Origin: Candidatus Eiseniibacteriota bacterium
GTDB taxonomy: Bacteria; Eisenbacteria; RBG-16-71-46; JAFGJU01
Length of the DNA: 64,000 nt
Assembly (NCBI GenBank): GCA_020349905.1
Contig: CP070702.1
Span: 1,900,047-1,964,046 of the forward strand
Direction of reading: 5' to 3'
Shown here: positions 71-50,501 of the stretch, piece by piece
Layout: every line of letters starts with the position of its first letter
Position numbering within the stretch: position 1 is the first letter of the stretch
Notes under the pieces: generated by a model
Told to the model about the DNA's origin: nothing
Seen by the model: only the letters and a program-made list of their open reading frames with translations
Databases searched by the model: none
Made by a program: the position numbers and the translations under genes

Positions 71-1585
71 ATGCTTTGCGCCTGGCGAAAGCGGTCCAAC
101 CTTGCCTTCCTTCTGGCCGTCTTGGCCCTCTTCGTCCTGGCCTCTCCTGTTCTGGGGGGAACTTTCGAGGACTTGGAGAACGAGGTGGTCGAGAAAGTGC
201 TTCCCAACGGGCTGAAGGTCATTCTGCTCCCCAGGCCTGTCGCCCCCGTGGTCTCGATGGCGACGTACGCCAACGTTGGCTCTTCAGACGAGCACACGGG
301 CATCACCGGCCTGGCCCACATATTCGAACACATGGCTTTCAAGGGCACGGAGAGCATAGGCACGAAGGACTACAAGAAGGAGGAGGAGGCCATAAGAAAG
401 GTGGACCAGGCCTTCCTGGCACTCAAGGCCGAAAGAAACAAACGCCACCTGGCTTCGCCGGAGAAGCTGGAGAAGCTCGAACAGGCTTTCAAACAGGCCC
501 AGGACGAGGCGGCGGAGTACGTGGTTTCGAACCAGCTCGGAGAGGTCCTGGAGAAGCAGGGCGCCGCGGGTCTCAACGCCTATACCAGTTTCGACCAGAC
601 TGTCTACCACTATTCCCTTCCCTCCAACAAGCTGGAGCTCTGGGCGGCGGTTGAGGCCGACAGGTTCACCAATCCCGTGCTTCGAGAGTTCTACAAAGAG
701 ACCAGCGTGATACGCGAGGAGAGGAGGATGGGCATCGAGAGCTCCCCGAACGGCAAGCTCTTCGAGGAGGCCCTGGCCGCAGCCTACAAGGCGCATCCCT
801 ACCACGTCCTGGTCATAGGGCACATGTCCGACCTGGAGTCGATAACCCGTGAGGAAGCCAGAGCGTGGTTCAGGAAGTATTACTGCGGCAGCAATCTCAC
901 CGCCTGCGTGGTGGGTGACGTGAATCCCAAGACCGCGATGTCCTTGCTTGAGAAGCACCTCGCACGAATCCCCTCCGGGGAAAGACCGGTTCCGGTTGAG
1001 ACCGTGGAGCCGGCCCAGCTGGGTCTGAAGAGAATCAACGTGGAGGACCCTGCCCAACCCTTCCTCGCGATGGCCTACCACAAGCCCGACGCCAACGACC
1101 CCGACAATGCCACGTACGAGGTCATCACCACGCTCATGGGTCAGGGCAGGACGTCCCGGCTTTACAAGAGACTGGTCAAGGAGGACAAGCTGGCGCTCGC
1201 CGCTGGATGCATGAGCCTCGGGGAGAAATACCCCGGACTATTCATCTACTTCGCGCTTCCGAACAAGGACAAGACTACCGCCGAGAATGAGGCGGTCATT
1301 CTCGAGGAAATAGAACGTCTCAAGACCGAACCCGTCTCCGAGGACGAATTGAACGGAGTGAAGACGCGAAAGAAGGCGGAGTTCATCAACTCTTTAGACA
1401 GCAATATGGGCCTCGCCATCAACCTCGCGAATTTCGAGAATCTGACGGGCTCGTGGAGAAACATGTTTAGGCAGTTGGAACAGATAGAAAGCGTGGCGGC
1501 CGAGGACATACAGAGAGTGGCCAAGAAGTGTTTCGTCAAGAAGAACTGCACGATCGCGGAGATAGTGAAGCCAGAGAGCGAGTAG
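71..1585 (+). CDS. M16 (pitrilysin/insulinase) family zinc peptidase, predicted active subunit, secreted
   Basis: HxxEH inverted zinc motif 'HIFEHMAFKGTE'; N-terminal signal peptide 'LAFLLAVLALFVLASPVLGG'; RBS aaGGAGGaatctcATG directly upstream; 504 aa is typical for two-domain M16. Confidence 0.85.
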   Translation: MLCAWRKRSNLAFLLAVLALFVLASPVLGGTFEDLENEVVEKVLPNGLKVILLPRPVAPVVSMATYANVGSSDEHTGITGLAHIFEHMAFKGTESIGTKDYKKEEEAIRKVDQAFLALKAERNKRHLASPEKLEKLEQAFKQAQDEAAEYVVSNQLGEVLEKQGAAGLNAYTSFDQTVYHYSLPSNKLELWAAVEADRFTNPVLREFYKETSVIREERRMGIESSPNGKLFEEALAAAYKAHPYHVLVIGHMSDLESITREEARAWFRKYYCGSNLTACVVGDVNPKTAMSLLEKHLARIPSGERPVPVETVEPAQLGLKRINVEDPAQPFLAMAYHKPDANDPDNATYEVITTLMGQGRTSRLYKRLVKEDKLALAAGCMSLGEKYPGLFIYFALPNKDKTTAENEAVILEEIERLKTEPVSEDELNGVKTRKKAEFINSLDSNMGLAINLANFENLTGSWRNMFRQLEQIESVAAEDIQRVAKKCFVKKNCTIAEIVKPESE

Positions 1586-1640: not shown

Positions 1641-3776
1641 ATGAAACGCACTGTCGAGATGATTAGCCCGTCGATCATCTTGTTGCTTCTGGTTTCTCTT
1701 CCGGCTCTGGCGCTGGGCGCAGAGCTGAACGTGGAGAAACTGAAATACCCGAAGCTGAATGAGATCGTGATGCCCGAGGTGCAGGAGATCACGTTGCCCA
1801 ACGGAATGACCGTGATGCTGGTCGAGGACCACGAACTCCCGCTCGTCAAGATGAAGGCCCTAATAAGGGCCGGAACCGTGTACGAGCCTACTGGAATGGC
1901 CGGACTCACGGAGATGTTCGGCGAGGCATGGAGGACCGGAGGCACAGCTTCGTGGACCGGCGACGAGATCGACGAAATCCTGGAGTCGATCGGAGCAACG
2001 ATCGAGGGCGGCATAGGCGAAGGAAGCGCCACTCTCTCAGCGAATACCATGACCGAAAGCTTCGACCAGGTGCTGGACATCTTTAGAGAGATCCTTATGA
2101 CCCCCGTCTTCAGCGAAGACAAGGTTGACCTCGCCAGGACGCGGCTTTCCAGCATAGTCTCCAGGCGTAACGACGAGCCGATGAGCATCCTGATGCGTGA
2201 GTACAGGAAGCTCATATACGGCCCTGCATCCCCGTACGCCAGGCAGTACGAGTACGAAGGCCTGAACAAGCTGGCCAGAGAGGACATGCTGGAATTCCAC
2301 GGCAGGTATTTTCATCCCAACGCGGTCATCTTGGGTGTGTGGGGAGATTTCAAGACGTCGGATATGAAGAAGAAGCTCGAGCAGTCCTTTGCAGAGTGGA
2401 ACTCCGCCGACATCGATTATCCCGAAGTGGCCGAGGTCGACCTCACGCTCAGACCCTCGGTCAACTATGCCGAGAAGAAGGACATCGAGCAGTGCTTCGT
2501 CCTGACCGGCCATCTCTGCATGAGATTGGACGACCCCGACTATCCGGAGTTCTACGTGATGTCCGAGATACTGGGTGGCGGATGGACCTCCCGGATATTC
2601 AAGAAGGTCAGAACCGAGTTGGGGCTGGCCTACGGTGCAGGCGGCGGCCTCATGTCCAGGTACGATTATCCCGGTCCCTTTTATACCTTCTGCTCCACGA
2701 AATTCGCCTCCACTCACCAGGCCATCTCGGCCATGCTGGACGAGGTCAAGAGGATAAGGGAGACGGAAGTCACCGACGCAGAACTGGCGCTGGCCAAGGA
2801 ATCCTACTTGAATTCCTTCGCGTTCAACTTTGACTCCGTGGGAAAGATCCTCTCCAGGCTGATGACTTACAGGTACCACGGCTACCCTCCCGACTTCCTG
2901 CAGAAGACGAGAGCGGCGATCGAGAACGTCACGAAGCAGGACGTTCTGAGAGTGGCCAGGGAGCGCCTGCATCCTGACAAGCTGGTCATCCTGGCCGTGG
3001 GCGACGCCGAGAGGTTTGACAAACCGCTCTCCTCGTTCGGCGCGGTGACCACGCTGGACATAAGCATTCCCGAGCCCGGAGAGGCGGTTCCAGAGCCGAC
3101 CGAGGCCTCTGCAGAGAAGGGGGACGAGATAATGCAGAAGGCGCTGGCCGCCATGGGGGGCGCGGAGAGAGTGCTCTCGTTAAACTCCATCAGCAGCGTC
3201 CTCACTGCTTCCATGAGCACTCCTGCCGGAGACATGACCATCGATATGACGCTGGTGCTTGTCTATCCGGACAGGTTCCGCCTCGACATGCAGACTCCCA
3301 TGGGCGCCGTGGTCCAGACGCTGGACGGGGACTCGGGATGGATGAGCACGCCGCAGGGAGTGATGGCGCTGCAGGGAAGCCAGGCAGCAGAACTGAAGAA
3401 GATGGTCAGGTTCGAACTCTTCAGCGTGCTGAAGGCCTTCGTTAGGGGAGAGGCAGAGATACAGTACCTGGGGGACACCCAGCTGGACGGACACGACGTG
3501 TTCGAGCTCCTTGTGTCTCTGGGGGACGACGCGTCGAGCCGCATGTTTGTGGACAAGAAGGATTACACCATCGTCGGCAATTCCAGAAGGGCGAACACGA
3601 TGGAGGGCCCCGCCGAGATCACCGAGATACTCTCCGACTTCAGAGACGTGGAAGGGCTGAAGGTGAGTTTCGCCTCTGCTCAGAGAGCAGGCGACAAGGA
3701 GGTTTCTTCGTCCTCCATTTCCGAGTTCAAGATAAACCCGGAAGTGGACCTTTCCATATTTGCGAAACCTGAGTAG
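1641..3776 (+). CDS. M16-family peptidase-like protein (no HxxEH, probably the non-catalytic partner) fused to a C-terminal ~250-aa LolA-like/DUF4292-like beta-barrel domain
   Basis: N-terminal 450 aa align in pattern to M16 but the zinc site is replaced ('GLTEMFGEAWRTGG'); signal peptide 'IILLLLVSLPALALGA'; C-terminal region 'MQKALAAMGGAERVLSLNS...FRLDMQTP...DGDSGWMSTPQG...VDKKDYTIVGNSRR' resembles LolA-like lipoprotein-sorting fold proteins; RBS gaaAGGAGtaaatcATG. Confidence 0.75.
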   Translation: MKRTVEMISPSIILLLLVSLPALALGAELNVEKLKYPKLNEIVMPEVQEITLPNGMTVMLVEDHELPLVKMKALIRAGTVYEPTGMAGLTEMFGEAWRTGGTASWTGDEIDEILESIGATIEGGIGEGSATLSANTMTESFDQVLDIFREILMTPVFSEDKVDLARTRLSSIVSRRNDEPMSILMREYRKLIYGPASPYARQYEYEGLNKLAREDMLEFHGRYFHPNAVILGVWGDFKTSDMKKKLEQSFAEWNSADIDYPEVAEVDLTLRPSVNYAEKKDIEQCFVLTGHLCMRLDDPDYPEFYVMSEILGGGWTSRIFKKVRTELGLAYGAGGGLMSRYDYPGPFYTFCSTKFASTHQAISAMLDEVKRIRETEVTDAELALAKESYLNSFAFNFDSVGKILSRLMTYRYHGYPPDFLQKTRAAIENVTKQDVLRVARERLHPDKLVILAVGDAERFDKPLSSFGAVTTLDISIPEPGEAVPEPTEASAEKGDEIMQKALAAMGGAERVLSLNSISSVLTASMSTPAGDMTIDMTLVLVYPDRFRLDMQTPMGAVVQTLDGDSGWMSTPQGVMALQGSQAAELKKMVRFELFSVLKAFVRGEAEIQYLGDTQLDGHDVFELLVSLGDDASSRMFVDKKDYTIVGNSRRANTMEGPAEITEILSDFRDVEGLKVSFASAQRAGDKEVSSSSISEFKINPEVDLSIFAKPE

Positions 3777-3819
3777 CGGGACCTCTGCTCCCTCTCGACG
3801 AACTCAAGAAGTCTTGTCG

Positions 3820-5604
3820 ATGGCCAAGAGGAAACGAGAAGCCGGGAAGCCGAGCGCGGCCAGGTCCGCTAAGCGCGCTCCCTCCGCTCGGAGTAGTCGG
3901 GCGACCGGGCCACTCCCCGAGGTGGCCGCGATCGCCCTGATTGTTCTGATGGTAGTTCTTGTCTACCACAGGGCTCTCCAGTATTTCTTCTTTCAAGACG
4001 ACTTCGTGAGCCTCTGGATAGCCCGGGAGGGCCCGGGCACACTCTGGAGGGTGCTTTCCAGCTACGCCTACTTTGGCCTCGCCCGCGCAGTATTCGGACT
4101 GAACCCCACCGCCTTTCACTTGCTTTCGATGCTGTTCCACGTGGCGAGTGCCGTCCTTGTGTTCTTCATAGCCAGGGCCCTTTCTTGTGGAAGAGGTCCC
4201 TCCCTGTTCGCATCGTCCCTCTTCGCGGTACATCCTTCGCTCTTCGTGCCGCTTTACGCCATCTCCTCCATCGGGGAGATCCTCTCGTGCTTCTTTGCCC
4301 TCTCGGCTGCGCTGTATTTGCTGGTTTCGATAAGGCCGTGGGCTCCGGGAGCGATAATCGCGGTCTCGGCCCTGTTCGTGGCCTCGCTTCTTTCCAAGGA
4401 GACAACGATTCTCTTCCCGCTACTCGTGCTTCCTGTCTTTGCAGCGCGAAGCATGCCGCTCAAGCGAGCCGTTCCCCTGCTGGCGGTCCTGGTGGCCATC
4501 GCGGCGGGCTACGGGGGCTTTCTCTATGCGCAGAACGTGTTCGGAATCCGTGAAGCGGCTCCAGAGACCGGACCGTATCATCTGGCCGTAGGACCCGAAC
4601 TGGTGACTAGTCTTCAGACTTACTTCAAGTGGGCCTTCAACGTCGTGGAGTCTTGGAGAAACAAACCGTTCAACGTCCTGGATGAGGAGGCCCTGCCCTG
4701 GCTTCTGGCGGGCGCAGGTGTGTTGGCGGCCCTCCTGGCCGGCTCCGGAGCTGGAAGAAGGCGAGTGGGATTCTGCCTCATATGGTTCTTCGTCATGCTG
4801 CTACCCGTGGTTCCTCTAGCCGGCCACCCCTATCACTACTATCTTTACATTCCCCTTGCCGGACTCGCGCCGGCTGTCGGGGTATTCCTGACGGAGCGAC
4901 TCAAGAAGGGCCAGATGCAACTGGCGGTCTCAGCCGCTCTCACCGTTGTCATGGTGATTCATTCCGCGCTCCTCGTCGCCAGAATCGAGAGCGCCACGGT
5001 CGACCAGAGTCGCACGCGGCAAGAGCCCACTTTCGACAGGGCCATCGTCTCAGGGAATCTCATCTCGGACCTCACACCCCGGCAGCTTCCCGATGGGGCG
5101 AAGCTCCTTCTGATAAGCCCACTCGATGACTTAAGAGCCGGAAGACTCACCGAGCACCCGCACATTCTGAAGGGAGGCCCGTATTGGGACTCCAACCTGC
5201 GCTCAGCCGTAGCGGAGGGCATCGGCATAAGGCTCTTCTTTCCGCAGGTGGACACGGTGGCCTTTTCAGAGAGGATGAGCCCGGAATTCGAGGGCTTCCT
5301 TCCCCTCCTCTATACGTGGGACGGCCACCTGAGAAGAGTGAAGCCGGCCCAGACGTGGACGGAGGCGGGTCTCCGATACATGCACGAGAACCCTGCGTTC
5401 GCGCGCACCTGTTTCAGAAACGCCGTGGAGGACGACAGTCTTTACGCGGACGCCTACTATCAGCTGGCCCGCATGTCTCTGTCCGAAGCCAGATTCTCTG
5501 AGGCGGCCGATGCGCTCAGGAAGTTTCTCTCGACCGCAGGGACGGACGTGCGAAGGGAAGGAGCCCGGAAGGTCCTCAGAGGCCTTGAGGCACGCGGCTA
5601 CTAG
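3820..5604 (+). CDS. GT-C superfamily membrane glycosyltransferase (PMT_2/GT39- or TMTC-like, candidate protein O-mannosyl/glycosyltransferase) with C-terminal TPR-like repeats
   Basis: Basic cytoplasmic N-terminus, then TM1 followed immediately by 'FFFQDDFVSLWIA' (DD/DE motif in first extracytoplasmic loop typical of GT-C enzymes); ~11 predicted TM helices; C-terminal soluble region with TPR-like 'AYYQLARMSLSEARFSEAADALRKFL'. Start moved to ATG 3820 (MAKRKRE) to avoid overlap with upstream gene. Confidence 0.6.
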   Translation: MAKRKREAGKPSAARSAKRAPSARSSRATGPLPEVAAIALIVLMVVLVYHRALQYFFFQDDFVSLWIAREGPGTLWRVLSSYAYFGLARAVFGLNPTAFHLLSMLFHVASAVLVFFIARALSCGRGPSLFASSLFAVHPSLFVPLYAISSIGEILSCFFALSAALYLLVSIRPWAPGAIIAVSALFVASLLSKETTILFPLLVLPVFAARSMPLKRAVPLLAVLVAIAAGYGGFLYAQNVFGIREAAPETGPYHLAVGPELVTSLQTYFKWAFNVVESWRNKPFNVLDEEALPWLLAGAGVLAALLAGSGAGRRRVGFCLIWFFVMLLPVVPLAGHPYHYYLYIPLAGLAPAVGVFLTERLKKGQMQLAVSAALTVVMVIHSALLVARIESATVDQSRTRQEPTFDRAIVSGNLISDLTPRQLPDGAKLLLISPLDDLRAGRLTEHPHILKGGPYWDSNLRSAVAEGIGIRLFFPQVDTVAFSERMSPEFEGFLPLLYTWDGHLRRVKPAQTWTEAGLRYMHENPAFARTCFRNAVEDDSLYADAYYQLARMSLSEARFSEAADALRKFLSTAGTDVRREGARKVLRGLEARGY

Positions 5605-5698: not shown

Positions 5699-8608
5699 TC
5701 AGTCCAGGACCACGAGCTTTCTCGTCAGGGTGTGCATGGCAGAGGAGAGCTTGAGGAAGTAGACACCGGGAGCCACATCACGCCCCCTCCAGTCTCTGCC
5801 GTCCCAGCTCAGCAGACGGCCGCCCGACACGGGAAGTCCAGAGTAAACGCGTCTCACCACCGCTCCGCGCACGTTCACGACATCCACGGTCACGGGAGTT
5901 CGGGCCTCGACATCGAACGTAACCTCTCCAGGAAATACGGCGGGGTTGGGAGTGGGAAGCCCCAGGTGAAAGCGGCCGGCGCTCCCCGCGGCGTCCACGG
6001 CCCCGAACTCGAAGACCAGGAGACTCCCGCCCGTTGTGGCGCACAGGAGCCGGTAATAAGGAACGACCGCCGCGGCCTCCTCGTCCACCCAGAAGTAGTC
6101 CCCCGCGCCCGAGGCCGGCAGCGATGCAAGTGTCTCCCACGACCCTTGCGACTGTCGCCTCCTCTGCACGTCGAACCTCTGGAAGAACCCGGGAAGAGCT
6201 CTCCAGGAGAGCCTCACGCCTTCCTCCACCCTTTCCGCGGTCAGCTCCCAGACAGGAGGAAAGGCAGGAGTCAGTTCACTCCAGGCCCCCAGCTTTCCCC
6301 AGATTCGGTAGGCCTCGTAAGGCGGGCCGCTCACGCCGGACCACACTATCAGGAACGCGCCGCCACCCTGCTCCGAAAGAGCAGGAGACTCCTCAGGGTC
6401 GGGGCTCTTTGAAACACCGGCTCCTCCTGGGTCCACCACGTCCCCCGCGCTGGCCAGGGGTGTGCCGTAGACATCAGTGTTGCCGCAACGAGTGTCGGTC
6501 CACACAGCCAGGTACCCTCCGACGTCCGAGGCCACGTCCGGTTCGAACTGAAGCCCGGACGCCTGGCTCACGGCCACGGAAGAGGTATCCAGCAGCTCCC
6601 CGGAACGGTTGAGGCGGGCGCCCCGGACGTCTGAATCTGTCGGACCGCTCGAACGTTCCTCCCAGAGCACCAGACACTCCTCTCCAAAACAGCTGACAGA
6701 GGGAGCCATGTCAGGCTTGGGCGAGCTGGAAATCCGTATTCCGGAGCTGTCCAGCACTTCTCCCTGCCGAGTCACTCTGGCGGCGTAGATGTCTGAGTCA
6801 CCGTTGCGGTCATCCTCCCAAACCACGACGTAGGTCGTGTCCAGGAAATCCACTCGCGGGCTCGTCTGGGAATGCTCCGCACCCTGGACAGAGACGAGGA
6901 GGCCCGAGCTTTCCAGCACGAGGCCAGAGCTGGAGACGCGTGCTCCGTAAATGTCGCCGTTCCCGTCCCGATAGTCCTCCCAGACGCAGAAGTACGTCGC
7001 GCCATCGTTAGCCACCGAGGGCGCACCCTGCATCCCATCGTAGGTTGAGACGGGGATGGGCTGGTCCTCCAGCACCTCGCCGGAGCTGTTCACCCTGTGA
7101 CCGTAGATGTCCGTGGGAACCCTATCGTCTGTCCAGACCACCAGGAAATTGGAGCCGTTCGAGGAAACGTCCGCCCAGTATTGATTGCCAAAGAGACTGG
7201 CCACGGCGATCCCCAGCGTGTCCATCACCTCTCCTGAGGGCGACACTCTGGTGGCGTATATGTCCCGGTGTCCCGCCCTGTAATCTTCCCAGACAACAAG
7301 ATGATTGGCTCCACCGTATGCGGCCCTGGGATTGCGCTGCGCATTGCCGGTCATCGACACGAGAAACCCGCAGGGGTCCTGCGGAGTTCCTCCTGCAGAC
7401 ACCCGGCAGGCGTACACGTCGTCATCGATTCCCGAACGGAAGTCCATCCACGCCACCAGCCACTCGCCGCCGGCCACACAGACGGACGGCGCCTGCTCAA
7501 GCTCCCCGACCGTACAGAGTGTGGCCGCAGTCCCTCCGGCCAGTAAGGTATCCAGCCGGCATACCATGACGTTCTCGAACACGCTCACGTCCCTCCAAGC
7601 TGCGAGCAACGTGTCGGCGTGGCAGGAGACCGCGGGGTCGTACTGCCCGCCCGGAGAGGAACAGACTTCCACACCCGTACCGTCCAGAACCGCGCCCGAC
7701 ACGCTGACCCGGGTCCCAAAAAGCTTCTCCTGCACGTTGCGGCCGTCCTGCCAGAGGACTGCGTAGCTGGTGCCGCCGTACGTAACGTCGGGCACCGTCC
7801 TGGCGTTCCCGTCGAGCAGGTTGCAAACAGGGATTCCGAAGACGTCCAGGACCCCACCGGACGCATCGACGCGGGAACCGTATATGCTCCAGTTTGCGAG
7901 CCGCCTGTCCTGCCAGATGACCAGGAAGTCGGTGCCGTCGCTCGCCACTGCGACCTCGGTCTGCTCGTTGCGTTCACCGCAGATGAGAAAGCCGCCCGGG
8001 TCCAGCACATCTCCCGAGAAGGTGACCCTGGCTCCGTAGACGTCAGTTTCTCCTCCTCTTATATCGTGCCATACTACGAGGAAGTGTGAATCGGAAGAAG
8101 CCACCGCGGGAGAACGGGCGTCCGTGCCGCCGCAAACGACAAACGGTTCCGCCCCCAGCGTCTCACCGCCCGGAGAAACGCGTCTGGCCATTATCCGGTC
8201 GAGCCCCTCTTGCCAGACTACCAGGAAGCTGCCACCGCCGAACGCGCAGGCAGGGAATCTCTGGGTGTCCTGGCCGGAACCCACAGGGAACCCAGAGGGG
8301 TCAAGAACTTCGTTTCCCGAGACGCGAGCAGCGTACACCTCTGTTGCGCCCCACCTGCCGTCTTCCCAGACCGCGAGCGCCACTCCGTCTCCGAACGCCA
8401 GCTCAGGGAACCACTGGTCGCCGGACGCACGGCCATATTCGGGGACGCCTCCGAGGTGCGTGGCCGGGCTGCCGTTGCTCAAAAGCGGCAGACGGACGGC
8501 AGGCGCTTCGCCGGTCCTGGAGGCGGCTTCGAGTGGTGGAGACGCAAACACCACGCAGAAGGTCAAGACGATCCAGAGGATTGCAGCGCGCACTTCACCT
8601 GGCCTCAT
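5699..8608 (-). CDS. Large secreted repeat protein: signal peptide, 14 tandem ~50-aa 'W-x-D-x-R...DIYG-x-RV...SGEVLD' repeats (probable beta-propeller), FN3-like domain, T9SS/FlgD-Ig-type C-terminal sorting domain
   Basis: N-terminal 'ILWIVLTFCVVFASPPLEAAS'; 14 units each starting VW/IW/LW-(E/Q/H/T)-D-x-R; C-terminal 90 aa '...VVNVRGAVVRRVYSGLPVSGGRLLSWDGRDWRGRDVAPGVYFLKLSSAMHTLTRKLVVLD' matches T9SS type-A CTD / FlgD Ig-like pattern. Confidence 0.7.
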   Translation of the reverse strand: MRPGEVRAAILWIVLTFCVVFASPPLEAASRTGEAPAVRLPLLSNGSPATHLGGVPEYGRASGDQWFPELAFGDGVALAVWEDGRWGATEVYAARVSGNEVLDPSGFPVGSGQDTQRFPACAFGGGSFLVVWQEGLDRIMARRVSPGGETLGAEPFVVCGGTDARSPAVASSDSHFLVVWHDIRGGETDVYGARVTFSGDVLDPGGFLICGERNEQTEVAVASDGTDFLVIWQDRRLANWSIYGSRVDASGGVLDVFGIPVCNLLDGNARTVPDVTYGGTSYAVLWQDGRNVQEKLFGTRVSVSGAVLDGTGVEVCSSPGGQYDPAVSCHADTLLAAWRDVSVFENVMVCRLDTLLAGGTAATLCTVGELEQAPSVCVAGGEWLVAWMDFRSGIDDDVYACRVSAGGTPQDPCGFLVSMTGNAQRNPRAAYGGANHLVVWEDYRAGHRDIYATRVSPSGEVMDTLGIAVASLFGNQYWADVSSNGSNFLVVWTDDRVPTDIYGHRVNSSGEVLEDQPIPVSTYDGMQGAPSVANDGATYFCVWEDYRDGNGDIYGARVSSSGLVLESSGLLVSVQGAEHSQTSPRVDFLDTTYVVVWEDDRNGDSDIYAARVTRQGEVLDSSGIRISSSPKPDMAPSVSCFGEECLVLWEERSSGPTDSDVRGARLNRSGELLDTSSVAVSQASGLQFEPDVASDVGGYLAVWTDTRCGNTDVYGTPLASAGDVVDPGGAGVSKSPDPEESPALSEQGGGAFLIVWSGVSGPPYEAYRIWGKLGAWSELTPAFPPVWELTAERVEEGVRLSWRALPGFFQRFDVQRRRQSQGSWETLASLPASGAGDYFWVDEEAAAVVPYYRLLCATTGGSLLVFEFGAVDAAGSAGRFHLGLPTPNPAVFPGEVTFDVEARTPVTVDVVNVRGAVVRRVYSGLPVSGGRLLSWDGRDWRGRDVAPGVYFLKLSSAMHTLTRKLVVLD

Positions 8609-8636: not shown

Positions 8637-10580
8637 TCAGAGGGAACCGGGCCGACCCCCTACCCGAACTCTCCTGGCGGAAACCCAGAAGAGGATGCAG
8701 GCGGCCAGGCCGAATAGAAGAAGCGAGGCCCAGTCGCTCTCGTGCAGCACTTGAGGCAGCTCGAACTTCGCGTATATGAGAGCGGCAACTATGATCCCGG
8801 TTATGGACTCACCTGCTATCAAGCCCGAGCTGAAAAGAACTCCGTTGTGAATCGCGCCTCGGGCCTGGTTCTCCCCTCTTGTTCTCACTATCAAGGAGGC
8901 AACGTGGTTTATTATGCCTCCGAACAGTATCGGGGTCGAGAGACTGACAGGAAGATAGATGCCGACCGCAACCGGCATGACGTGCGCTCTGAACGAGCAG
9001 TTTCTCTCCTTGAGAAAAATGTCGAGCACCAGGAGAAGAAGACCGATGGCAGCACCTATGCCGACCATGGTCCAGGGAAGGGCCATGTCTGAGAACATGG
9101 CCTTCACTATGCTGGCAAAGAGAGTCGCCTGCGGCGCTCGCAGGAACGGCACGCCCTCTTTCACCGGGACGCCGATTCCGTGAGCCGAGTGAAGGACCGT
9201 GAGTACCGGGGCTATGATGAAGGCAGGAATCACGACGCCAATGACCTGAGACAGCTGCTGCCGCCTCGGAGTGGCTCCCACGAGATATCCGGTTTTCAGA
9301 TCCTGGGACACGTCTCCCGCCGTGCACGCGGCGCAGCAGACCACGCCCGCCACTCCCAGCGCAGCGATGATTCCCGACGCCCCCGTCATCCCCATGAGCA
9401 GAAGCAACGCAGACGAGAAGAGCACCGTGCATATGGTCATACCGGACACCGGGTTGTTGGAGCTTCCCACTAGCCCCACTATGTAGCTGGACACCGCCAC
9501 GAAGAAGAATCCGGTCACGACCATCGCCACGCCGGCCACGATGGCCGTGGGGACGTTTGAGGTCAGATAGCCGTACAGGAAGAACGTCGGCACTATTGCG
9601 GCCGCGGCGATGACGGCTATCATCTTCGTCCCCATGTCCTGTTCTGTGCGCTTCACCTGTCCCACTCGGCTCGAGCCGGTGTAGCCCAGTATTGTGCTGC
9701 GCATTCCGTCGGCGATTCCGCGTCGCACCTTTATGATGGAGGCGATACCGCCCACGACCATCGCCCCAACCCCCATGTATCGTATCTGGCTGCTCCACAT
9801 CTCCTCGAGCGAGCCGATGAGCGTGTCCCCCGCCGGGATGCCCTGGACCGCCCCGAGTATCGGGATCCCTACCAGCCAGCCTATGGCCCCTCCGATGAAG
9901 ACCAGAGCAGCCACGTTGGGGCCCACCACGAAGCCCACGCCGATGAGAGCCACAGACATGTCGCTTCCCGCGTAGAACGCGGTCCGGCCGGCCTCCCACG
10001 CCCATTGCACCGTCCCCTTTATGACCGAGTATGCGGACACGAAGAACTTGAAGACCACGCTCAGCAGCATGGCCGAGAAGACATAGAGCACACCCGACCC
10101 GCCTCGTTCACCCGTCTCGAGCACTTCTGCGCAGGCCAGTCCCTCCGGGTAGACCAGCTCCTTCTCCTCCACTATGAGAGACCTTCTCAACGGGATCATG
10201 AAGACCACACCGAGAAGACCCCCGAACATCGCAATGAGTGTCACAGGCCAGTACTTGAAGTCCAGCCACACGCCGGCTATCACGAGAGCAGGGACCGTGA
10301 AGATAATACCCGCGGCGAGGGACTCTCCCGCAGACGCGATGGTCTGCACTATGTTGTTCTCGAGGATGGTCCCCCTTCTGAGCAGTCCCCGCAGCACACC
10401 CATGGAGATGACGGCAGCCGGAATGCTGGCCGACACCGTCATTCCGGCGTAAAGACCCAGGTAGACGTTTGCCGCAGTCATGACGAGGCCCAGCAGAAGG
10501 CCCAGCACGACCGCCTTCAGGGTGAACTCGCTGATGCTCTTCTCTGCGGGAACAAAGGGGCCGGAGTGTTCGTTTCGCAT
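8637..10580 (-). CDS. OPT-family oligopeptide transporter
   Basis: 647 aa polytopic membrane protein with N-terminus 'FTLKAVVLGLLLGLVMTAANVYLGLYAGMTVSASIPAAVISMG' characteristic of bacterial OPT family; RBS AAGGAG 8 nt upstream. Confidence 0.8.
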   Translation of the reverse strand: MRNEHSGPFVPAEKSISEFTLKAVVLGLLLGLVMTAANVYLGLYAGMTVSASIPAAVISMGVLRGLLRRGTILENNIVQTIASAGESLAAGIIFTVPALVIAGVWLDFKYWPVTLIAMFGGLLGVVFMIPLRRSLIVEEKELVYPEGLACAEVLETGERGGSGVLYVFSAMLLSVVFKFFVSAYSVIKGTVQWAWEAGRTAFYAGSDMSVALIGVGFVVGPNVAALVFIGGAIGWLVGIPILGAVQGIPAGDTLIGSLEEMWSSQIRYMGVGAMVVGGIASIIKVRRGIADGMRSTILGYTGSSRVGQVKRTEQDMGTKMIAVIAAAAIVPTFFLYGYLTSNVPTAIVAGVAMVVTGFFFVAVSSYIVGLVGSSNNPVSGMTICTVLFSSALLLLMGMTGASGIIAALGVAGVVCCAACTAGDVSQDLKTGYLVGATPRRQQLSQVIGVVIPAFIIAPVLTVLHSAHGIGVPVKEGVPFLRAPQATLFASIVKAMFSDMALPWTMVGIGAAIGLLLLVLDIFLKERNCSFRAHVMPVAVGIYLPVSLSTPILFGGIINHVASLIVRTRGENQARGAIHNGVLFSSGLIAGESITGIIVAALIYAKFELPQVLHESDWASLLLFGLAACILFWVSARRVRVGGRPGSL

Positions 10581-13047: not shown

Positions 13048-13683
13048 CTAGCGGATGAGCTCTATCCCGAGCGAAGCGGGCCAATCCACCAACAGGAACA
13101 GAAGCCTTCCCACCAGAAGAGAAATCCTGGCCATCACGGTGAAACCGTAGGAGGCCCCGAAGGAGACCATCAAGAACCAGATGCCCAACTTGGCAGTGGC
13201 TCCCAGCGCTCCCTTGTGTTCTTTGGAAAAGAAAAAGTAGACCAGGGTAGCGAGGACCCCGACCACGATGACCCAGTTCGTGAACGTGTCTATCAGAGAC
13301 CCTGCCTTCAGCGGAAGCATGTTCGCCTGTATCTGGGCAACCAGGTCTCCCTGCGCGAAGCCGATGATGGCCAGTCCCGAAAAAGTCCCCACCATGAGCC
13401 CGATGGCCCATCTACTGAGCCAGTTGAAGCGGACCGTGAATCTGGAGAACATCAGCACTCCCAGCAGAAAGGGGATGACCAGCTTGTAGTCGCCAGCAAG
13501 GAGCGGTCTCCACAGGTTGGGAAGGAAGACGTTCTGGAACTCTATGGCCACTATGTAGCCTGCTGCGATACCCACGAATATGTGCTCGGCGAACTTGTAT
13601 ACAGGATTGTCCCTGTAGAGAAAGCTGAAGATGGCAATCGTGAGGAGGGCCGCCATGGTGTGTAGGACTGGAGACGGAAGCAA
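13048..13683 (-). CDS. Polytopic integral membrane protein (module B' of duplicated pair), function unknown
   Basis: 211 aa, ~6 hydrophobic helices; weak similarity to the 14506..15126 product (e.g. 'PNLWRPLLAGDYKLVIPFLLG' vs 'SKDWPYAFPLLAGLGFMLTVG'); 4-nt spacing to upstream gene. Confidence 0.55.
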   Translation of the reverse strand: MLPSPVLHTMAALLTIAIFSFLYRDNPVYKFAEHIFVGIAAGYIVAIEFQNVFLPNLWRPLLAGDYKLVIPFLLGVLMFSRFTVRFNWLSRWAIGLMVGTFSGLAIIGFAQGDLVAQIQANMLPLKAGSLIDTFTNWVIVVGVLATLVYFFFSKEHKGALGATAKLGIWFLMVSFGASYGFTVMARISLLVGRLLFLLVDWPASLGIELIR

Positions 13684-13687
13684 GTCG

Positions 13688-14509
13688 CTACCTCCTCTTG
13701 CCTCCGGCCTTCACGGACCGGAAGTAGAGCACGTTTCCGACTATTATGAACACTATGATGGCCAGGTGACCCAGCGATTGGGCGTCCATGCCTCTCGTTG
13801 CGGTTCCCGCCACTCCGACGAGCTTCTCGTACTCGGCCGCGCCCGCAAGCCCACCCAGCAGGCCCACGAGCTGCCCGGACTGGTAGTAGGGATAGTATTC
13901 CGGAGCGCTCACCGCGGTGCATCCCGCAGCTATCGTCACGTGAAACCTGGACTGCACCTGCTGCACCCATTCCTTGGTCCCCGGGTAGCCGGCCGAAATG
14001 TTGACTATCATCGCCACGTCGCTGAAGTTGCGTACGCCGTCCATTATCGGCAACTCGCTCACAGGAGTCCCATAGAAATCAGCAGGAAAGGTGCCGGGGA
14101 TGCTCTTTCCCAAACTCACCATCACGACTTCGCGTCCCTCCTTATAGCCCAGGTTCACGAAGTCCACCCCGTACTTCTTTCCGAACTTCTCTTCTCCGAC
14201 CCTGGTCAGCACCTCCTCCAACAGAGGTGGCCCTCCGGGCCACAGGCACGCCCCTATCACCTTGATGTCACGCGAGAACAGGTGGTTTAGCGTAGCGTAG
14301 CTCATTGGATGCACTTCGGGAAGAGTTGCGGGGTCGTAGTCGCAGGCGAAGTAGACCGTCGAGCCCTCGGGCACCCGGTCGATGGCATCGTAGGCTCCCA
14401 GCACTTCCTTGCTGACCCGAATGGGCAGCCCCAGCGGGATTATCAGAGGTATCAGGACCACCAGCAGGATGACAAGGAACACGTATCTTCTATCGAAACC
14501 TTCCATCAA
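13688..14509 (-). CDS. Membrane protein: N-terminal TM, ~200-aa extracytoplasmic domain, C-terminal TM (module A'), function unknown
   Basis: 273 aa; same topology and faint sequence echo of the 15193..16137 product; start overlaps upstream stop (ATGA). Confidence 0.55.
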   Translation of the reverse strand: MMEGFDRRYVFLVILLVVLIPLIIPLGLPIRVSKEVLGAYDAIDRVPEGSTVYFACDYDPATLPEVHPMSYATLNHLFSRDIKVIGACLWPGGPPLLEEVLTRVGEEKFGKKYGVDFVNLGYKEGREVVMVSLGKSIPGTFPADFYGTPVSELPIMDGVRNFSDVAMIVNISAGYPGTKEWVQQVQSRFHVTIAAGCTAVSAPEYYPYYQSGQLVGLLGGLAGAAEYEKLVGVAGTATRGMDAQSLGHLAIIVFIIVGNVLYFRSVKAGGKRR

Positions 14510-15126
14510 TCACCGCCGAGATAATTGCGTTCGATGCCCAGGATGACCTTGAGCCCCGTTGATATCGCGCCCAACGCTGCCCCTATGAGGATGGCCCGCT
14601 TGGCGGCCATCTGCGGGGCGTTCATAATCCAGTCCGATATTACGGGGAGCTTGTCCCATATTTCGGTGCCGACGGGGACCCTGCCCAGCATCACGATGAC
14701 GGCCGCCACGGCCAGCAGGCCGGCTTCGAGCGTCCTTATTCGGAAGGCCCTGAAGGCCGCAGAGGCGATGAAGAACGCCAGAAGCGAGAACATGGTGCCC
14801 GACATGGGAGCGTAGGCGTAGAGGTAGAAATCGCTGAAGAGGGTTCCGTTTCCAACGCCGAACACGACTCCGACGGTCAGCATGAAGCCCAGACCCGCCA
14901 GAAGGGGGAACGCGTACGGCCAGTCCTTAGAGCGCTTGGATATCTTCTCTCCGTTGATGCGCACAATGTTGGCCACACCCAGCACGTAAGCAAAGGCCAC
15001 CACTATGATGGCCCATTGTTGGAGCATCTCTCCGAAGCCGGTGACGGAGGGATGAGGAACGAAATACTCTATCACCATGAAGGAGCCGAAGATGGCCGTT
15101 ATGATGAGCGGGACCTCTCGCCTCAA
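14506..15126 (-). CDS. Polytopic integral membrane protein (module B), function unknown
   Basis: 206 aa, ~6 TM; paralogue-like to 13048..13683. Confidence 0.55.
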   Translation of the reverse strand: MRREVPLIITAIFGSFMVIEYFVPHPSVTGFGEMLQQWAIIVVAFAYVLGVANIVRINGEKISKRSKDWPYAFPLLAGLGFMLTVGVVFGVGNGTLFSDFYLYAYAPMSGTMFSLLAFFIASAAFRAFRIRTLEAGLLAVAAVIVMLGRVPVGTEIWDKLPVISDWIMNAPQMAAKRAILIGAALGAISTGLKVILGIERNYLGGD

Positions 15127-15192
15127 TCCGTTTCCCCTTTCAGAACGAACCTTCTCACGTTGTCCGACTTGAAGCGGGTATCCATTGTTCCC

Positions 15193-16137
15193 CTATTGCA
15201 CGGTGAGCCACCGGGTGAAGGCCGTCACCCCGAAGGTCTCCAGGATGGCTCCCACTATCAACGCCCCCATCACGAACACTTTCATCCAGTCCGAACCCTT
15301 CAAAGTTCCCACCAGCTTCGGTTCGTCGGAGAGGTAGGCCGTGGCAGCGAAAAACTCCTCGCCTATCAGGGTGTAGTCGCACGCCACTACGAAAAAGGGA
15401 AGCTGGTGTATGTTTGCGGTTCCTGCTATCTGAATGGCACCCGTGCTGAAGCCGGTCTCGGCAAGGATCAATGACTCGGCGAAGAAGGAGCCCAGAAAAA
15501 GGTTGGCGGCCGGCTTCTCCCTCAGCATTATGCCGTCCACGCCGGCAGTGAAGGCGAACTGTTCATCGGAGAGATATCTTATGTTGTCGGGGTTGTATGC
15601 ATCCGGATGCCCGGCGTCCAGGTAGCCCTGCTTCACGGTTTCCTCTGCCAGAGGGACCACGAAGGCCTTGCAGACAGGCACGATGAGGGGGGTCTCATAC
15701 CGGGCCACGAGCTTGGCCACGGTTCCCAGAATGACCATGCTGTAAATCGTCTGTATGTTGTTGACGTCGTCGATGCCGGGCACGTACAGCACGGCCTTCC
15801 CCATCTCGGTGGCCCTTCCGATGGCTTCCTCGATGGCGCTGAGGCCGGTTATCTTCCTGACGTAAAGGGATCTCCCCCTCACCGCTTTCCTGATGAACAG
15901 CAGAACAAGGAAGAAGAAGAGCCCGATTATGACGAGCAAGTTCACCCGGCGGGGATCAAACCACACCGCGGCCTGGCTTGCGGGGTCGGCTGGTGCACCT
16001 GCCTGGGCACTTGTGGTGTCGGGAAGAATCTCTTCCGGAGAAGCGTCAGATTCGGCACGGGCCATCGCGGGCGTCCCGGCCAGGCTGGCAAAGAGGAGAA
16101 ACGTGGCGATGATGAGAAGACACTCGACTCTGTTCAC
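15193..16137 (-). CDS. Membrane protein with cleavable-looking signal peptide, low-complexity linker, TM anchor and ~200-aa domain plus C-terminal TM (module A), function unknown
   Basis: 'LLIIATFLLFASLAGTPAMARA' signal; 'LLVIIGLFFFLVLLFI' TM; C-terminal TM 'VFVMGALIVGAILETFGV'. Confidence 0.55.
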   Translation of the reverse strand: MNRVECLLIIATFLLFASLAGTPAMARAESDASPEEILPDTTSAQAGAPADPASQAAVWFDPRRVNLLVIIGLFFFLVLLFIRKAVRGRSLYVRKITGLSAIEEAIGRATEMGKAVLYVPGIDDVNNIQTIYSMVILGTVAKLVARYETPLIVPVCKAFVVPLAEETVKQGYLDAGHPDAYNPDNIRYLSDEQFAFTAGVDGIMLREKPAANLFLGSFFAESLILAETGFSTGAIQIAGTANIHQLPFFVVACDYTLIGEEFFAATAYLSDEPKLVGTLKGSDWMKVFVMGALIVGAILETFGVTAFTRWLTVQ

Positions 16138-16168
16138 TGTCCCTACCAGGTCCGCTTTCTATGCCACA

Positions 16169-17299
16169 CTACCCCTCTATCATCTCCACGTTGGCTCTGG
16201 GCAACGTGGCCCTGCTTCCGTCTTCAAACTCCACCTCCAGCACCCTCACCTTGGCTTCAGTTTCCAGAACTCGCAGCTCCGACGGGAGGTCGACGACCTT
16301 TCCCAGCTTTCCGAAGTGCGGCTCTCTGATTACGCGGATGGCACCCCCGACCTCGAGGCCCGATGCGGAGAAGATACTGCCGGTGTCCCCGGCCGACCTC
16401 CCGGCGCCGTCTGCGGCCACGATGACCTCGGGTCTCATGACCCCAGCCCTTATCTGGGTGGCCCCGCTCATGGAAGCGCGTTTTCCCTCCAGTGACTTGA
16501 GAAGTGAGAACGTCTTCTCCGCCATTCTCATTCTCCCGAACCCTTCGGTCACTATGAGGGATATCCCTTTCTCCTCGGAGCCAGTTATGGCGACACCCAG
16601 ATCGTAGCCCAGGAACTGCCTCAGGTCCTTGTCGTCTATTCCGCCGGCCACGACTCCCCTTACCCCCAGGGAGGCAGCCCTGGTGAGAAACTCGCTGTCC
16701 ACCTTCGAGCCACCGATGAGAATCTTGTCGCGGCAGGATTCGTCCAGACTCTTGACGGCGAGCGGCTCGTCGCCCGCGCTCACAAGTAGCTTGATCTCTC
16801 CCCACGTCTCCCCACCGATTCCGAAGATGCCCTGGATGAAGGAGCCCTCGGTCTCCACCTTGACTCCCTCCTTCTCCATGCGCTCTATCACTCTCCCGTC
16901 CAGGTATGCGTGCACCTCGACAGGAATGGGAGGCTCTCGAAGGATGGCCTGGCCCGTGATGGTAGACGCGCTCTCGAGCGTTCCGTCGACGGGACTCTTG
17001 CACCTGGACTTGAACAGGCCGAAGAAGCTGCTGCTCATCGCGAAGACTTCGCCCTTCTGGAGCGGAGAACCGATGGGCTTCGTGAGAGCTCCCCCGATGT
17101 CTTCGGGCAGAAGGCTCAGGATGTTCGCAACGTTTACGGTCTGCACGTTTCCCGGCAGCTCTGTGCGGGCCACCACCTGCTCGGCACTGACCTGGCTTCC
17201 TTCCTCCACCAGGACGGAGCCAGAGAGAGGAAGTCTCCTCTCTCTCACGAGTCTAGTCCTGGCAGTTACCGTGACCCCTGGTGTGTAAGCGTGAGCCAC
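16169..17299 (-). CDS. Hypothetical soluble protein (376 aa), no family recognised; GTG start
   Basis: Long ORF with GGAGG RBS 9 nt upstream of GTG 17299; glycine-rich 'KILIGGSKVD...VRGVVAGGIDDKD' segment; codon usage consistent with neighbours. Confidence 0.5.
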   Translation of the reverse strand: MAHAYTPGVTVTARTRLVRERRLPLSGSVLVEEGSQVSAEQVVARTELPGNVQTVNVANILSLLPEDIGGALTKPIGSPLQKGEVFAMSSSFFGLFKSRCKSPVDGTLESASTITGQAILREPPIPVEVHAYLDGRVIERMEKEGVKVETEGSFIQGIFGIGGETWGEIKLLVSAGDEPLAVKSLDESCRDKILIGGSKVDSEFLTRAASLGVRGVVAGGIDDKDLRQFLGYDLGVAITGSEEKGISLIVTEGFGRMRMAEKTFSLLKSLEGKRASMSGATQIRAGVMRPEVIVAADGAGRSAGDTGSIFSASGLEVGGAIRVIREPHFGKLGKVVDLPSELRVLETEAKVRVLEVEFEDGSRATLPRANVEMIEG

Positions 17300-17333
17300 T
17301 TTCTGATTACCTCCGTATCGCGCGTCACCCGCG

Positions 17334-49916: not shown

Positions 49917-50501
49917 TCAGCGTGTTCGCTCATCTCCGCATCTCTGTTTCAGTATCCACTCGATGGCCTGTGTCGAGTTCTCGCACACCTTGTCCGCAAA
50001 GCCCAGAACCTCGTCCCCGTCCTTCTCCAGCTCCCCGCTCCCGAAGCCAGTCCGCACGAAAACCGTCGAAGTTCCGGCCGCCTTGCCGGCCTGCAAGTCG
50101 GTCAGCTTGTCACCGACCATGAAGCTGCGAGAGAGGTCGATGTCCAGCTCTTCGGCGGCCCTGAGAAGAAGTCCCGGTCTGGGCTTCCGGCAATCGCACT
50201 CCACGTCGTAGTCCGGGTGATGTACGCAGTAATAGACCGCATCCAGCGAAGCGTCCTGCGCGGCAAGAAGCTGTCTTAGTCGCTCGTTCACTGCCTCGAT
50301 ATCCTCGACAGTGAAGAGTCCCCTCGCCACGCCTGCCTGGTTCGATACGACGACCACGGGCACGCCCAGTCTGTTGAGGTGCGCGATCGAGGAGGCGACA
50401 TTCCCCAGCAGCTTGACCTTCGCAGGGTCCGAGATGTAGCCTGTCTCTTCGATAATCGTTCCGTCACGGTCAAGAAAGATCGCCCAGTCTGCCCTGCTCA
50501 A
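49917..50501 (-). CDS. gmhB: D-glycero-D-manno-heptose 1,7-bisphosphate 7-phosphatase (HAD-IIIA)
   Basis: 'AIFLDRDGTI' DxDGT motif, 'VVVSNQAG', 'CDCRKPRPG', 'FMVGDKLTDLQAG'. Confidence 0.8.
   Translation of the reverse strand: MSRADWAIFLDRDGTIIEETGYISDPAKVKLLGNVASSIAHLNRLGVPVVVVSNQAGVARGLFTVEDIEAVNERLRQLLAAQDASLDAVYYCVHHPDYDVECDCRKPRPGLLLRAAEELDIDLSRSFMVGDKLTDLQAGKAAGTSTVFVRTGFGSGELEKDGDEVLGFADKVCENSTQAIEWILKQRCGDERTR

What the first reader, a model, noticed from the sequence alone, without database searches (positions are those of the whole stretch)
5699..8608. 969-aa secreted protein with 14 copies of an unfamiliar ~50-aa 'WxDxR...DIYGxRV...SGEVLD' repeat and a T9SS-type C-terminal sorting domain
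Reading the translation shows 14 consecutive units, each beginning (V/I/L)W-(E/Q/H/T)-D-x-R. Each is followed about 9 residues later by D(I/V)YG-x-RV and then SG-x-VLD. The spacing of ~48-52 aa is compatible with two 7-bladed beta-propellers. These are followed by an FN3-like segment and a ~90-aa C-terminal domain matching the T9SS type-A CTD / FlgD Ig-like pattern.

The repeat consensus does not match the propeller repeats I know (WD40, PQQ, NHL, Kelch, YVTN, TolB). It may be a new repeat family exported by a T9SS in this lineage.
Basis: seen in the sequence. Interest (0 to 1): 0.7.

Follow-up and report, generated by a model that had tools for sequence, protein, structure and literature searches.

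The report
Secreted double beta-propeller, lectin-like surface protein
This gene encodes a secreted protein predicted to form two seven-bladed beta-propellers plus a cell-surface sorting tail; its repeat is not new but belongs to a very large, already catalogued and functionally unstudied family that is distantly related to bacterial sugar-binding propeller lectins.

Summary
The ORF at 5699-8608 (-) encodes 969 aa: a signal peptide, 13 clear and 1 degenerate ~52-aa units, an FN3-like domain and a C-terminal Ig-like domain. It is identical to a hypothetical protein of a Candidatus Eiseniibacteriota MAG.

The "new repeat family" reading is only partly right. No Pfam model fits. However, the repeat is the curated NCBIfam/TIGRFAM repeat TIGR04275 (beta_prop_Msarc). 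This protein scores 56 bits against a cut-off of 85, while its homologues (96-118 bits) and the family consensus pass.

The family is very large (at least 13,800 50%-identity clusters at E<=1e-30) and spans many phyla, including Myxococcota members without the sorting tail. A single-blade profile hits the fucose/mannose lectin CV39L in all seven of its blades (E 9e-8). Conservation is purely repeat-periodic.

The tail passes TIGR04183 marginally and carries the conserved Gly and Lys of T9SS CTDs. T9SS genes could not be checked.

Best reading: a Sec- and T9SS-exported, surface-displayed multivalent lectin or adhesin. New member of a known kind; modest interest.

The parts
5699..8608 (-). Complete ORF, 969 aa plus stop codon (5699-5701)
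   Evidence: 100% identical to NCBI MAG protein JSW03_08325. Orthologues at 52-67% identity are in conserved synteny.
8525..8608 (-). Sec-type signal peptide, about aa 1-28 (cleavage after VFA22 or LEA28; no lipobox)
   Evidence: Read directly from the sequence. AF2 shows a helix at 4-20 followed by a disordered 21-45. The cleavage site is inferred, not predicted with a dedicated tool.
7331..8437 (-). Propeller 1: repeat units 1-7, about aa 58-426 (units 2 and 6 degenerate)
6284..7330 (-). Propeller 2: repeat units 8-14, about aa 427-775 (unit 14, aa 743-775, is a degenerate closing blade)
   Evidence: TIGR04275 scores 54.1 bits with 4 stretches on this half. The degenerate 14th unit is conserved in the family consensus.
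5999..6268 (-). FN3-like beta-sandwich spacer, about aa 781-870
   Evidence: Seven strands in AF2. Foldseek match to 3mpc_A Fn3-like protein, TMt 0.65, 25% identity over 88 columns. phmmer against 3mpc_A gives only E 0.74.
5702..5971 (-). C-terminal Ig-like sorting domain (T9SS type-A CTD-like / FlgD_ig-like), about aa 880-969
   Evidence: TIGR04183 scores 23.4 bits against a cut-off of 23. PF13860 scores 23.4-26.1 and PF18962 13.3-17.9, both below their cut-off of 27. Motifs PNP 887-889, G915, WDG 935-937, GVYF 948-951 and K963-LVV are conserved in the alignments. The family profile hits solved T9SS CTDs 8glk_D, 5hfs_A and 5ag8_A.
8637..10580 (-). Upstream OPT-family oligopeptide transporter gene, 28 bp away on the same strand; possible co-transcription partner, not shown to be functionally linked
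   Evidence: PF03169 at 5e-99. A sigma70-like site at 10732-10704 (11 of 12 matches) lies upstream of OPT and none lies directly before the propeller gene. The adjacency is kept in the close relatives P0002 and P0004.

Best explanation
The gene encodes a cell-surface or extracellular protein.

Shown:
- An N-terminal Sec signal peptide.
- 14 four-stranded ~52-aa blades.
- An FN3-like spacer.
- A C-terminal Ig-like domain that meets the NCBIfam T9SS type-A sorting-domain model.

Inferred from the model and fold matches:
- The 14 blades close into two seven-bladed beta-propellers.

Inferred mechanism:
- Sec export to the periplasm.
- Recognition of the C-terminal domain by a type IX secretion system and passage across the outer membrane.
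- Removal of the CTD, followed by attachment to the surface or release.

The rigid double propeller would then act as a multivalent binding platform. Glycan binding (lectin or adhesin) is the most likely activity, with one potential site per blade junction, as in the distantly homologous seven-bladed lectins CV39L/BP39L and the analogous PLL lectins.

The repeat is a divergent copy of the catalogued TIGR04275 'beta_prop_Msarc' repeat, not a new one.
For: - ORF, signal peptide and units.
- AF2 model with pLDDT 90.3 and pTM 0.75, four strands per unit.
- Foldseek matches tandem 7+7 propellers such as Elp2.
- Sequence link to lectins. The single-blade profile hits 6gxs_A (CV39L) at E 8.6e-8, with seven stretches about 52 aa apart on the motif DGxxYLVxWQD.
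- Reciprocal link. NF052350 (CV39L family) hits the family consensus at 62 bits, E 5e-17, over profile positions 100-329 of 334, and hits 4 of 48 natural members.
- CV39L and BP39L are classed as L-Fuc/Man-binding PropLec7C lectins (PMC11186620).
- PLL lectins carry up to seven polar plus seven hydrophobic sites between blades (PMC6943638).
- All columns conserved at >=80% across 97 homologues fall on repeat-phase positions. No blade-specific residues are conserved, which argues against a single active site.
- TIGR04275: 48 of 48 homologues hit it, 7 of 10 tested exceed the cut-off, and the consensus scores 89.6 bits.
- CTD: TIGR04183 at 23.4 against 23; 29 of 48 homologues hit it, best E 1.4e-12; the family profile hits solved T9SS CTDs.
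- The conserved Gly in the beta3-beta4 loop and the Lys in the last strand match the two functional CTD motifs described in PMC11285876.
- The window carries LPS genes, so the organism has an outer membrane.
Against: - No ligand, binding site or activity is shown for any member of the family.
- The similarity to CV39L is confined to about 11-15 residues per blade (strands A/B), and the window protein itself does not hit NF052350.
- The window protein is a divergent member: 56 bits on TIGR04275, with several blades having lost consensus residues.
- The best structural neighbour is an enzyme (CylK), not a lectin.
- The Pfam CTD models are below threshold and TIGR04183 passes by 0.4 bit.
- The separate fold search of the C-terminal 193 aa gave only generic tandem FN3/Ig matches.
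- No T9SS core gene lies among the 40 window ORFs scanned, and the rest of the 2.69-Mb contig could not be read.
- Eisenbacteria are not among the phyla listed as having T9SS in the paper read.
- The 7+7 partition was not verified on coordinates.
Confidence: 0.55

Rival explanations
1. The propellers are catalytic, as in CylK-type alkylating enzymes, Vgb-type lyases or seven-bladed polysaccharide lyases and glycosidases. The protein would then be a secreted enzyme acting on an extracellular substrate.
Against: The CylK active site lies at the interface with an N-terminal RTX-like Ca-binding domain (Arg105, Tyr473, Asp440; PMC8916777), and that domain is absent here. Conservation across 97 homologues is strictly repeat-periodic, with no blade-specific polar residues. 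There is no sequence hit to CylK or to any lyase or hydrolase family. The GH43 hit has no significant stretch.
Confidence: 0.12
2. It is a protein- or peptide-binding surface scaffold working with its neighbours. It would capture proteins or peptides that the adjacent M16 peptidases degrade and the co-transcribed OPT transporter imports.
For: The OPT gene ends 28 bp upstream on the same strand, with the only good promoter-like site upstream of OPT. The block of propeller, membrane/TPR protein and two M16 peptidases is kept in relatives down to 52% identity. Propellers gate substrates in tricorn and prolyl oligopeptidases, which are among the fold hits.
Against: The synteny is seen only among close relatives, where the whole neighbourhood is collinear, so it carries little functional weight. 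In 77 other family loci the recurrent neighbours are paralogues or other CTD-bearing proteins, not OPT or M16. The M16 genes are convergent, not co-transcribed.
Confidence: 0.13
3. It is not a T9SS cargo. The C-terminal domain would be an ordinary FlgD-type Ig domain, and the protein would stay in the periplasm (TolB-like) or leave the cell by another route.
For: PF18962 and PF13860 are both below their gathering scores, and TIGR04183 passes by only 0.4 bit. FlgD (3osv_A) is the best PDB sequence hit of the tail. No T9SS gene lies in the window. Some homologues are named 'TolB family protein', and myxobacterial homologues lack the tail altogether.
Against: The domain sits at the extreme C-terminus. 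It has seven strands, the conserved Gly in the beta3-beta4 loop and the Lys in the last strand. 29 of 48 homologues hit TIGR04183, best E 1.4e-12, and many are named T9SS type A sorting domain proteins by NCBI. The family profile hits solved T9SS CTDs. The TolB model scores only 13.9 bits against a cut-off of 343.
Confidence: 0.12
4. It is the first reader's reading: a previously unrecognised propeller repeat family specific to T9SS export in this lineage.
For: No Pfam-A family reaches threshold, even with the consensus as query. No solved structure of a member exists. Most members are named hypothetical.
Against: The curated model TIGR04275 covers the repeat and is passed by homologues and by the consensus. 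The family is very large and spread over many phyla with different anchors. It has detectable homology to the CV39L lectins.
Confidence: 0.05

Closest known systems
TIGR04275 'beta_prop_Msarc' beta-propeller repeat (NCBIfam/TIGRFAMs)
   Same: It shares the core of the unit (strands A-C: PxVAxDGxxYLVVWxDxRxGxxDIY). Profile positions 2-34 of 40 align in homologues. Seven stretches are found per consensus propeller, and homologues and the consensus exceed the curated cut-off.
   Different: The window protein reaches only 56.1 bits against a cut-off of 85, with 24 bits on propeller 1 and 54 on propeller 2. The model is a bare repeat model with no function attached. There is no Pfam counterpart.
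CV39L / BP39L seven-bladed propeller lectins (PropLec7C, NF052350; PDB 6GXS, 6GXR)
   Different: The lectins are single ~360-aa propellers without an FN3 or CTD. Here two propellers sit in tandem with sorting domains. The sequence similarity is limited to strands A/B, and the score is far below the equivalog cut-off (62 against 350). The window protein itself gives no hit. Sugar binding (L-Fuc, Man) is untested here.
CylK (PDB 7RON), C-terminal propeller of the cylindrocyclophane Friedel-Crafts alkylating enzyme
   Different: CylK needs an N-terminal RTX-like Ca-binding domain that forms the active site with the top face of the propeller. That domain is absent here. No sequence-level hit was found. 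CylK has a Ca2+ site at each blade junction, which could not be assessed here.
PLL/PHL family lectins of Photorhabdus (PDB 5C9O and others)
   Different: No sequence similarity was detected. They are cytoplasmic or released soluble oligomers, not CTD cargo. This is an analogy for the mechanism, not family membership.
T9SS type-A CTD cargo proteins (e.g. RgpB, F. johnsoniae cargo in 8GLK)
   Same: Signal peptide, functional domains, Ig-like spacer and a C-terminal 7-stranded sandwich with the conserved Gly (beta3-beta4 loop) and Lys (last strand). TIGR04183 is passed.
   Different: The host is an Eisenbacteria MAG, outside the phyla for which T9SS is documented in the paper read. The tail scores better on FlgD_ig than on Pfam Por_Secre_tail. 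The secretion machinery was not verified.

Membership tests
TIGR04275 beta_prop_Msarc repeat protein | Whole-protein HMM score at or above the curated cut-off of 85 bits | tested here: not met
   The window protein scores 56.1 bits, E 2.1e-15. By half, propeller 1 scores 24.1 and propeller 2 scores 54.1.
TIGR04275 beta_prop_Msarc repeat protein | Homologues of the protein are bona fide members (family-level membership) | tested here: met
   48 of 48 homologues hit the model, best E 5.2e-39. 7 of 10 tested score 96-118 bits. The family consensus propeller scores 89.6 bits with 7 stretches.
CV39L family lectin (NF052350 / PropLec7C) | Equivalog HMM score at or above 350 bits | tested here: not met
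   No hit for the window protein at E<=10. The consensus scores 62 bits. 4 of 48 members hit, best E 8.3e-18.
CV39L family lectin (NF052350 / PropLec7C) | Seven-bladed propeller fold with a per-blade DGxxYLVxWQD motif at a period of about 52 aa | tested here: met
   [not shown]
CV39L family lectin (NF052350 / PropLec7C) | Single-domain ~360-aa soluble lectin architecture | tested here: not met
   Here there are two propellers plus an FN3-like domain, a CTD and a signal peptide.
CV39L family lectin (NF052350 / PropLec7C) | Binding of L-fucose or mannose | not testable with these tools
   The specificity is taken from review PMC11186620.
T9SS type-A CTD cargo | C-terminal sorting-domain HMM above the curated cut-off | tested here: inconclusive
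   TIGR04183 scores 23.4 against 23 and passes by 0.4 bit. Pfam PF18962 scores 13.3-17.9 against 27 and PF13860 scores 23.4-26.1 against 27; both fail.
T9SS type-A CTD cargo | Seven-stranded Ig-like sandwich at the extreme C-terminus, with a conserved Gly at the start of beta4 and a Lys in the last strand | tested here: met
   AF2 strands at 894-967. G915 is conserved in 84% of sequences and K963 is near-invariant. The motifs are as defined in PMC11285876. The fold search itself was generic.
T9SS type-A CTD cargo | N-terminal Sec signal peptide | tested here: met
   Read from the sequence: basic n-region, 15-residue hydrophobic core, AxA-like site. Helix 4-20 in AF2. No dedicated predictor was run.
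T9SS type-A CTD cargo | T9SS core machinery (SprA/Sov, PorV, GldK/L/M/N, PorU) encoded in the genome | not testable with these tools
   Only 64 kb of a 2.69-Mb contig is available. None of the 40 ORFs scanned is a T9SS component.
CylK-type alkyl-halide-activating enzymes | N-terminal RTX-like Ca-binding domain forming the active site (Arg105) with the propeller | tested here: not met
   The propeller starts about 30 residues after the signal peptide, with no extra N-terminal domain. The definition is from PMC8916777.
TolB / PD40 propeller | TIGR02800 or Pfam PD40 match | tested here: not met
   TIGR02800 scores 13.9 bits against a cut-off of 343. There is no PD40 hit at E<=10.
Pfam propeller repeats (WD40, Kelch, NHL, PQQ, YVTN/SBBP, FG-GAP) | Any Pfam repeat model hit | tested here: not met
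   None is listed at E<=10 for the protein or for the family consensus. The only trace is a TRIM71 NHL similarity at E 0.07.

The most novel reading that the evidence does not exclude
Probability: 0.3. Interest if true: 0.5.

Novelty: new member of a known kind. Interest (0 to 1): 0.3.

Why it matters
The finding matters mainly for annotation. Tens of thousands of 'hypothetical', 'TolB family' or 'FlgD Ig-like domain' proteins in candidate phyla and in cultured Myxococcota share this double propeller. None has a Pfam domain, a structure or a known function.

Linking the blade to the CV39L/BP39L lectins gives a testable function: multivalent glycan binding at the cell surface. It would help explain what these abundant, paralogue-rich surface proteins do in sediments and soils, for example attachment to polysaccharides or to other cells.

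Cultured Archangium and Cystobacter strains carry homologues, so genetics is possible. For this particular gene nothing is out of the ordinary.

Tried and rejected
- **Pfam hits are spurious.** DUF3659, PurS, Peptidase_M23_N, GH43, DUF6322 and Ago_N_3 hit the protein or consensus as sums of short per-repeat matches with few or no significant stretches (at most 3, for DUF6322).
- **PF27743 is irrelevant.** It appears in the precomputed lists but is 'CTXL_C (faint)'.
- **Sequence searches of the PDB gave nothing for the repeats.** The protein, the full family profile and the consensus propeller were all tried. The only hits were a phage virion-associated protein (8jou_D, about one blade, E 1.9e-4) and TRIM71 NHL (E 0.07). 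Only the single-blade profile found CV39L.
- **The C-terminal fold search did not discriminate.** A separate model of the last 193 aa gave generic tandem FN3/Ig matches. PorU was at rank 18, so it does not separate T9SS CTD from FlgD-type Ig.
- **Neighbourhood analysis found no partner.** OPT and M16 synteny is conserved only in close relatives. In 77 loci elsewhere the recurrent neighbours are paralogues or other CTD proteins.
- **No paralogue or other CTD gene lies in the window**.
- **T9SS could not be settled.** Literature searches for T9SS in Eisenbacteria or WOR-3 found nothing. A search for TIGR04275 found no paper. The CV39L primary paper is not held.
- **Tool limits.** The NCBIfam scan of the 97-member alignment exceeded the size limit, so 48 members were used. 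P0073 is not on record for context look-up.
Full report
**Observation**

The minus-strand ORF at 5699-8608 encodes 969 aa. It is 100% identical to the hypothetical protein JSW03_08325 of a Candidatus Eiseniibacteriota MAG, on a 2.69-Mb contig.

Anchoring on the Trp of the motif gives 13 canonical units. The anchors are W81, 132, 180, 232, 286, 338, 387, 440, 492, 543, 597, 649 and 703, spaced 48-54 aa apart. A degenerate 14th unit (aa 743-775) follows and is conserved as a degenerate closing unit across the family.

The anchor motif occurs 13 times, against a mean of 0.56 and a maximum of 5 in 2000 shuffles. Units share 15-44% identity, and Tandem Repeats Finder sees no DNA-level repeat. The array is therefore old, not a recent amplification.

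**Structure**

AlphaFold2 was run with 97 homologues and gives pLDDT 90.3 and pTM 0.75. The model shows:
- a signal-peptide helix and a disordered linker;
- four strands per unit across aa ~58-775;
- a seven-strand sandwich at ~786-869;
- another sandwich at ~880-967.

Foldseek on the whole chain prefers tandem-propeller proteins such as Elp2. I conclude the layout is 2x7 blades. I could not inspect coordinates, so the exact boundary, placed at aa 426/427, is an inference.

**Is the repeat new?**

Pfam-A has nothing above threshold for the protein or for the family consensus. The listed hits (DUF3659, PurS, GH43 and others) are sums of tiny per-repeat matches.

NCBIfam, however, has the curated repeat model TIGR04275 'beta_prop_Msarc':
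- the window protein scores 56.1 bits (E 2e-15), below the cut-off of 85;
- all 48 homologues tested hit it, best E 5e-39;
- seven of ten myxobacterial-type homologues score 96-118 bits, aligned over profile positions 2-34 of 40;
- one consensus propeller scores 89.6 bits with seven stretches.

The repeat is therefore a divergent instance of a catalogued repeat, not a new family.

The family is also very large and not specific to this lineage:
- A profile search of 1.84 billion cluster representatives finds 13,800 proteins at E<=1e-30 and 35,764 at E<=1e-10.
- A scan of species-representative genomes confirms 363 loci. They come from WOR-3, TA06, Stahlbacteria, Edwardsbacteria, Zixibacteria, Eisenbacteria, Gemmatimonadota, Myxococcota (Archangium, Cystobacter), Actinomycetota, Planctomycetota and others, often with several paralogues per genome.

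Two architectures exist. One has a signal peptide, 14 blades, an optional FN3 domain and a CTD. The other, in Myxococcota, has a 230-290-aa N-terminal extension and no CTD.

**A characterised relative**

A profile of the single blade (44 units) hits the solved lectin CV39L (6gxs_A) with E 8.6e-8. It does so through seven stretches about 52 aa apart, each on DGxxYLVxWQD.

The reciprocal search agrees. The CV39L-family HMM NF052350 hits the family consensus propeller at 62 bits (E 5e-17) over profile positions 100-329 of 334, and it hits 4 of 48 natural members.

CylK is the closest fold. Its active site needs an N-terminal RTX-like domain that is absent here (PMC8916777), and there is no sequence signal linking the two.

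**Function**

Across the 97 aligned homologues, every column conserved at >=80% in the repeat region falls on a repeat-phase position. Nothing blade-specific is conserved. This is the pattern of repeat lectins and scaffolds rather than of propeller enzymes with a single active site.

PLL-type lectins bind ligands between adjacent blades, with up to 7+7 sites (PMC6943638). They offer a concrete model for how such a regular propeller could work. I therefore favour a multivalent glycan-binding surface protein. This step is inferred, not shown.

**Export**

The N-terminus is a Sec-type signal peptide without a lipobox (sequence).

Evidence on the C-terminal domain is mixed but leans towards a T9SS sorting signal:
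- it passes TIGR04183 marginally (23.4 against 23);
- it fails the Pfam models PF18962 and PF13860;
- in the alignments it keeps PNP, G915, WDG, GVYF and K963;
- the Gly in the beta3-beta4 loop and the Lys in the last strand are the two CTD motifs shown to matter for secretion (PMC11285876);
- the family profile hits solved T9SS CTDs (8glk_D and gingipain CTDs);
- 29 of 48 homologues hit TIGR04183, best E 1e-12.

A separate model of the last 193 aa gave only generic tandem FN3/Ig fold matches, with PorU at rank 18.

The window encodes LPS biosynthesis genes, so an outer membrane is present. None of the 40 ORFs scanned is a T9SS component, and the rest of the genome was out of reach. T9SS export is plausible but unproven.

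**Context**

An OPT transporter gene ends 28 bp upstream on the same strand. The only good promoter-like site lies upstream of OPT.

A membrane/TPR protein and two M16 peptidase genes lie convergently downstream. This block is kept in relatives of 52-67% identity, where the whole neighbourhood is collinear. Elsewhere, family members sit next to paralogues or other CTD proteins. I give the peptide-capture idea low weight.

**Verdict**

The structural and export parts of the interpretation are largely supported. The novelty claim is not.

The protein is a divergent new member of a known, catalogued but functionally unstudied repeat family. Its most useful lead is distant homology to propeller lectins. 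Interest is modest (0.3).

Noticed in passing
window 3760-5604 (+): A 614-aa polytopic membrane protein with a weak C-terminal TPR signal and no Pfam family. It is convergent with the propeller gene and syntenic in relatives down to 52% identity. An FFQDDF motif near the first loop is reminiscent of GT-C glycosyltransferases; this comparison is from memory and was not tested.
   Followed up: partly
window 71-1585 and 1641-3776 (+): Two adjacent M16 (insulinase-type) peptidase genes, conserved next to the membrane protein in related contigs.
   Followed up: partly
window 8637-10580 (-), promoter-like site 10732-10704: The OPT oligopeptide transporter gene ends 28 bp before the propeller gene. 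An 11-of-12 sigma70-like site lies upstream of OPT, so a two-gene operon is possible.
   Followed up: partly
window 62628-63947 (-), 59520-60911, 58071-59441, 56938-58074, 50498-52738 (-): An LPS cluster: an LpxC-FabZ fusion protein, LpxB, WaaA (Kdo transferase), LpxK and a 746-aa heptosyltransferase with two GT9 stretches. The organism is therefore a diderm with LPS.
   Followed up: partly
PDB 8jou_D versus the family profile (window aa ~90-160 equivalent): A 93-aa 'virion-associated phage protein' matches about one blade of the family consensus (YDI..AR..P.G.VL...G..I...G...SPA...DGT..VW) at E 1.9e-4 to 4e-3. This may be chance or a single-blade relative.
   Followed up: no
[not shown]
   Followed up: partly
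window 13048-19184 (-): A conserved block of small unannotated ORFs, DUF6754 (15193-16137) and a PF13941 'MutL' (glutamate-mutase-associated type) protein (17334-19184). The stretch up to the ORF just beyond DUF6754 is syntenic in related contigs, whose fetched loci end there; the PF13941 gene lies outside them.
   Followed up: no
window 55123-56904 (+) versus 55165-56811 (-): The 593-aa plus-strand ORF has no family hit and overlaps nadB (L-aspartate oxidase, 666 bits) on the opposite strand. It is a high-GC shadow ORF.
   Followed up: yes
loci L007-L083 (genome contigs): Family members are often tandem paralogues or sit beside other giant CTD-bearing proteins, for example the YVTN-repeat protein at L062 4480-6852. 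90 family ORFs were found in 77 loci. Representatives of up to 4,921 aa with up to 9 matched stretches also exist.
   Followed up: partly
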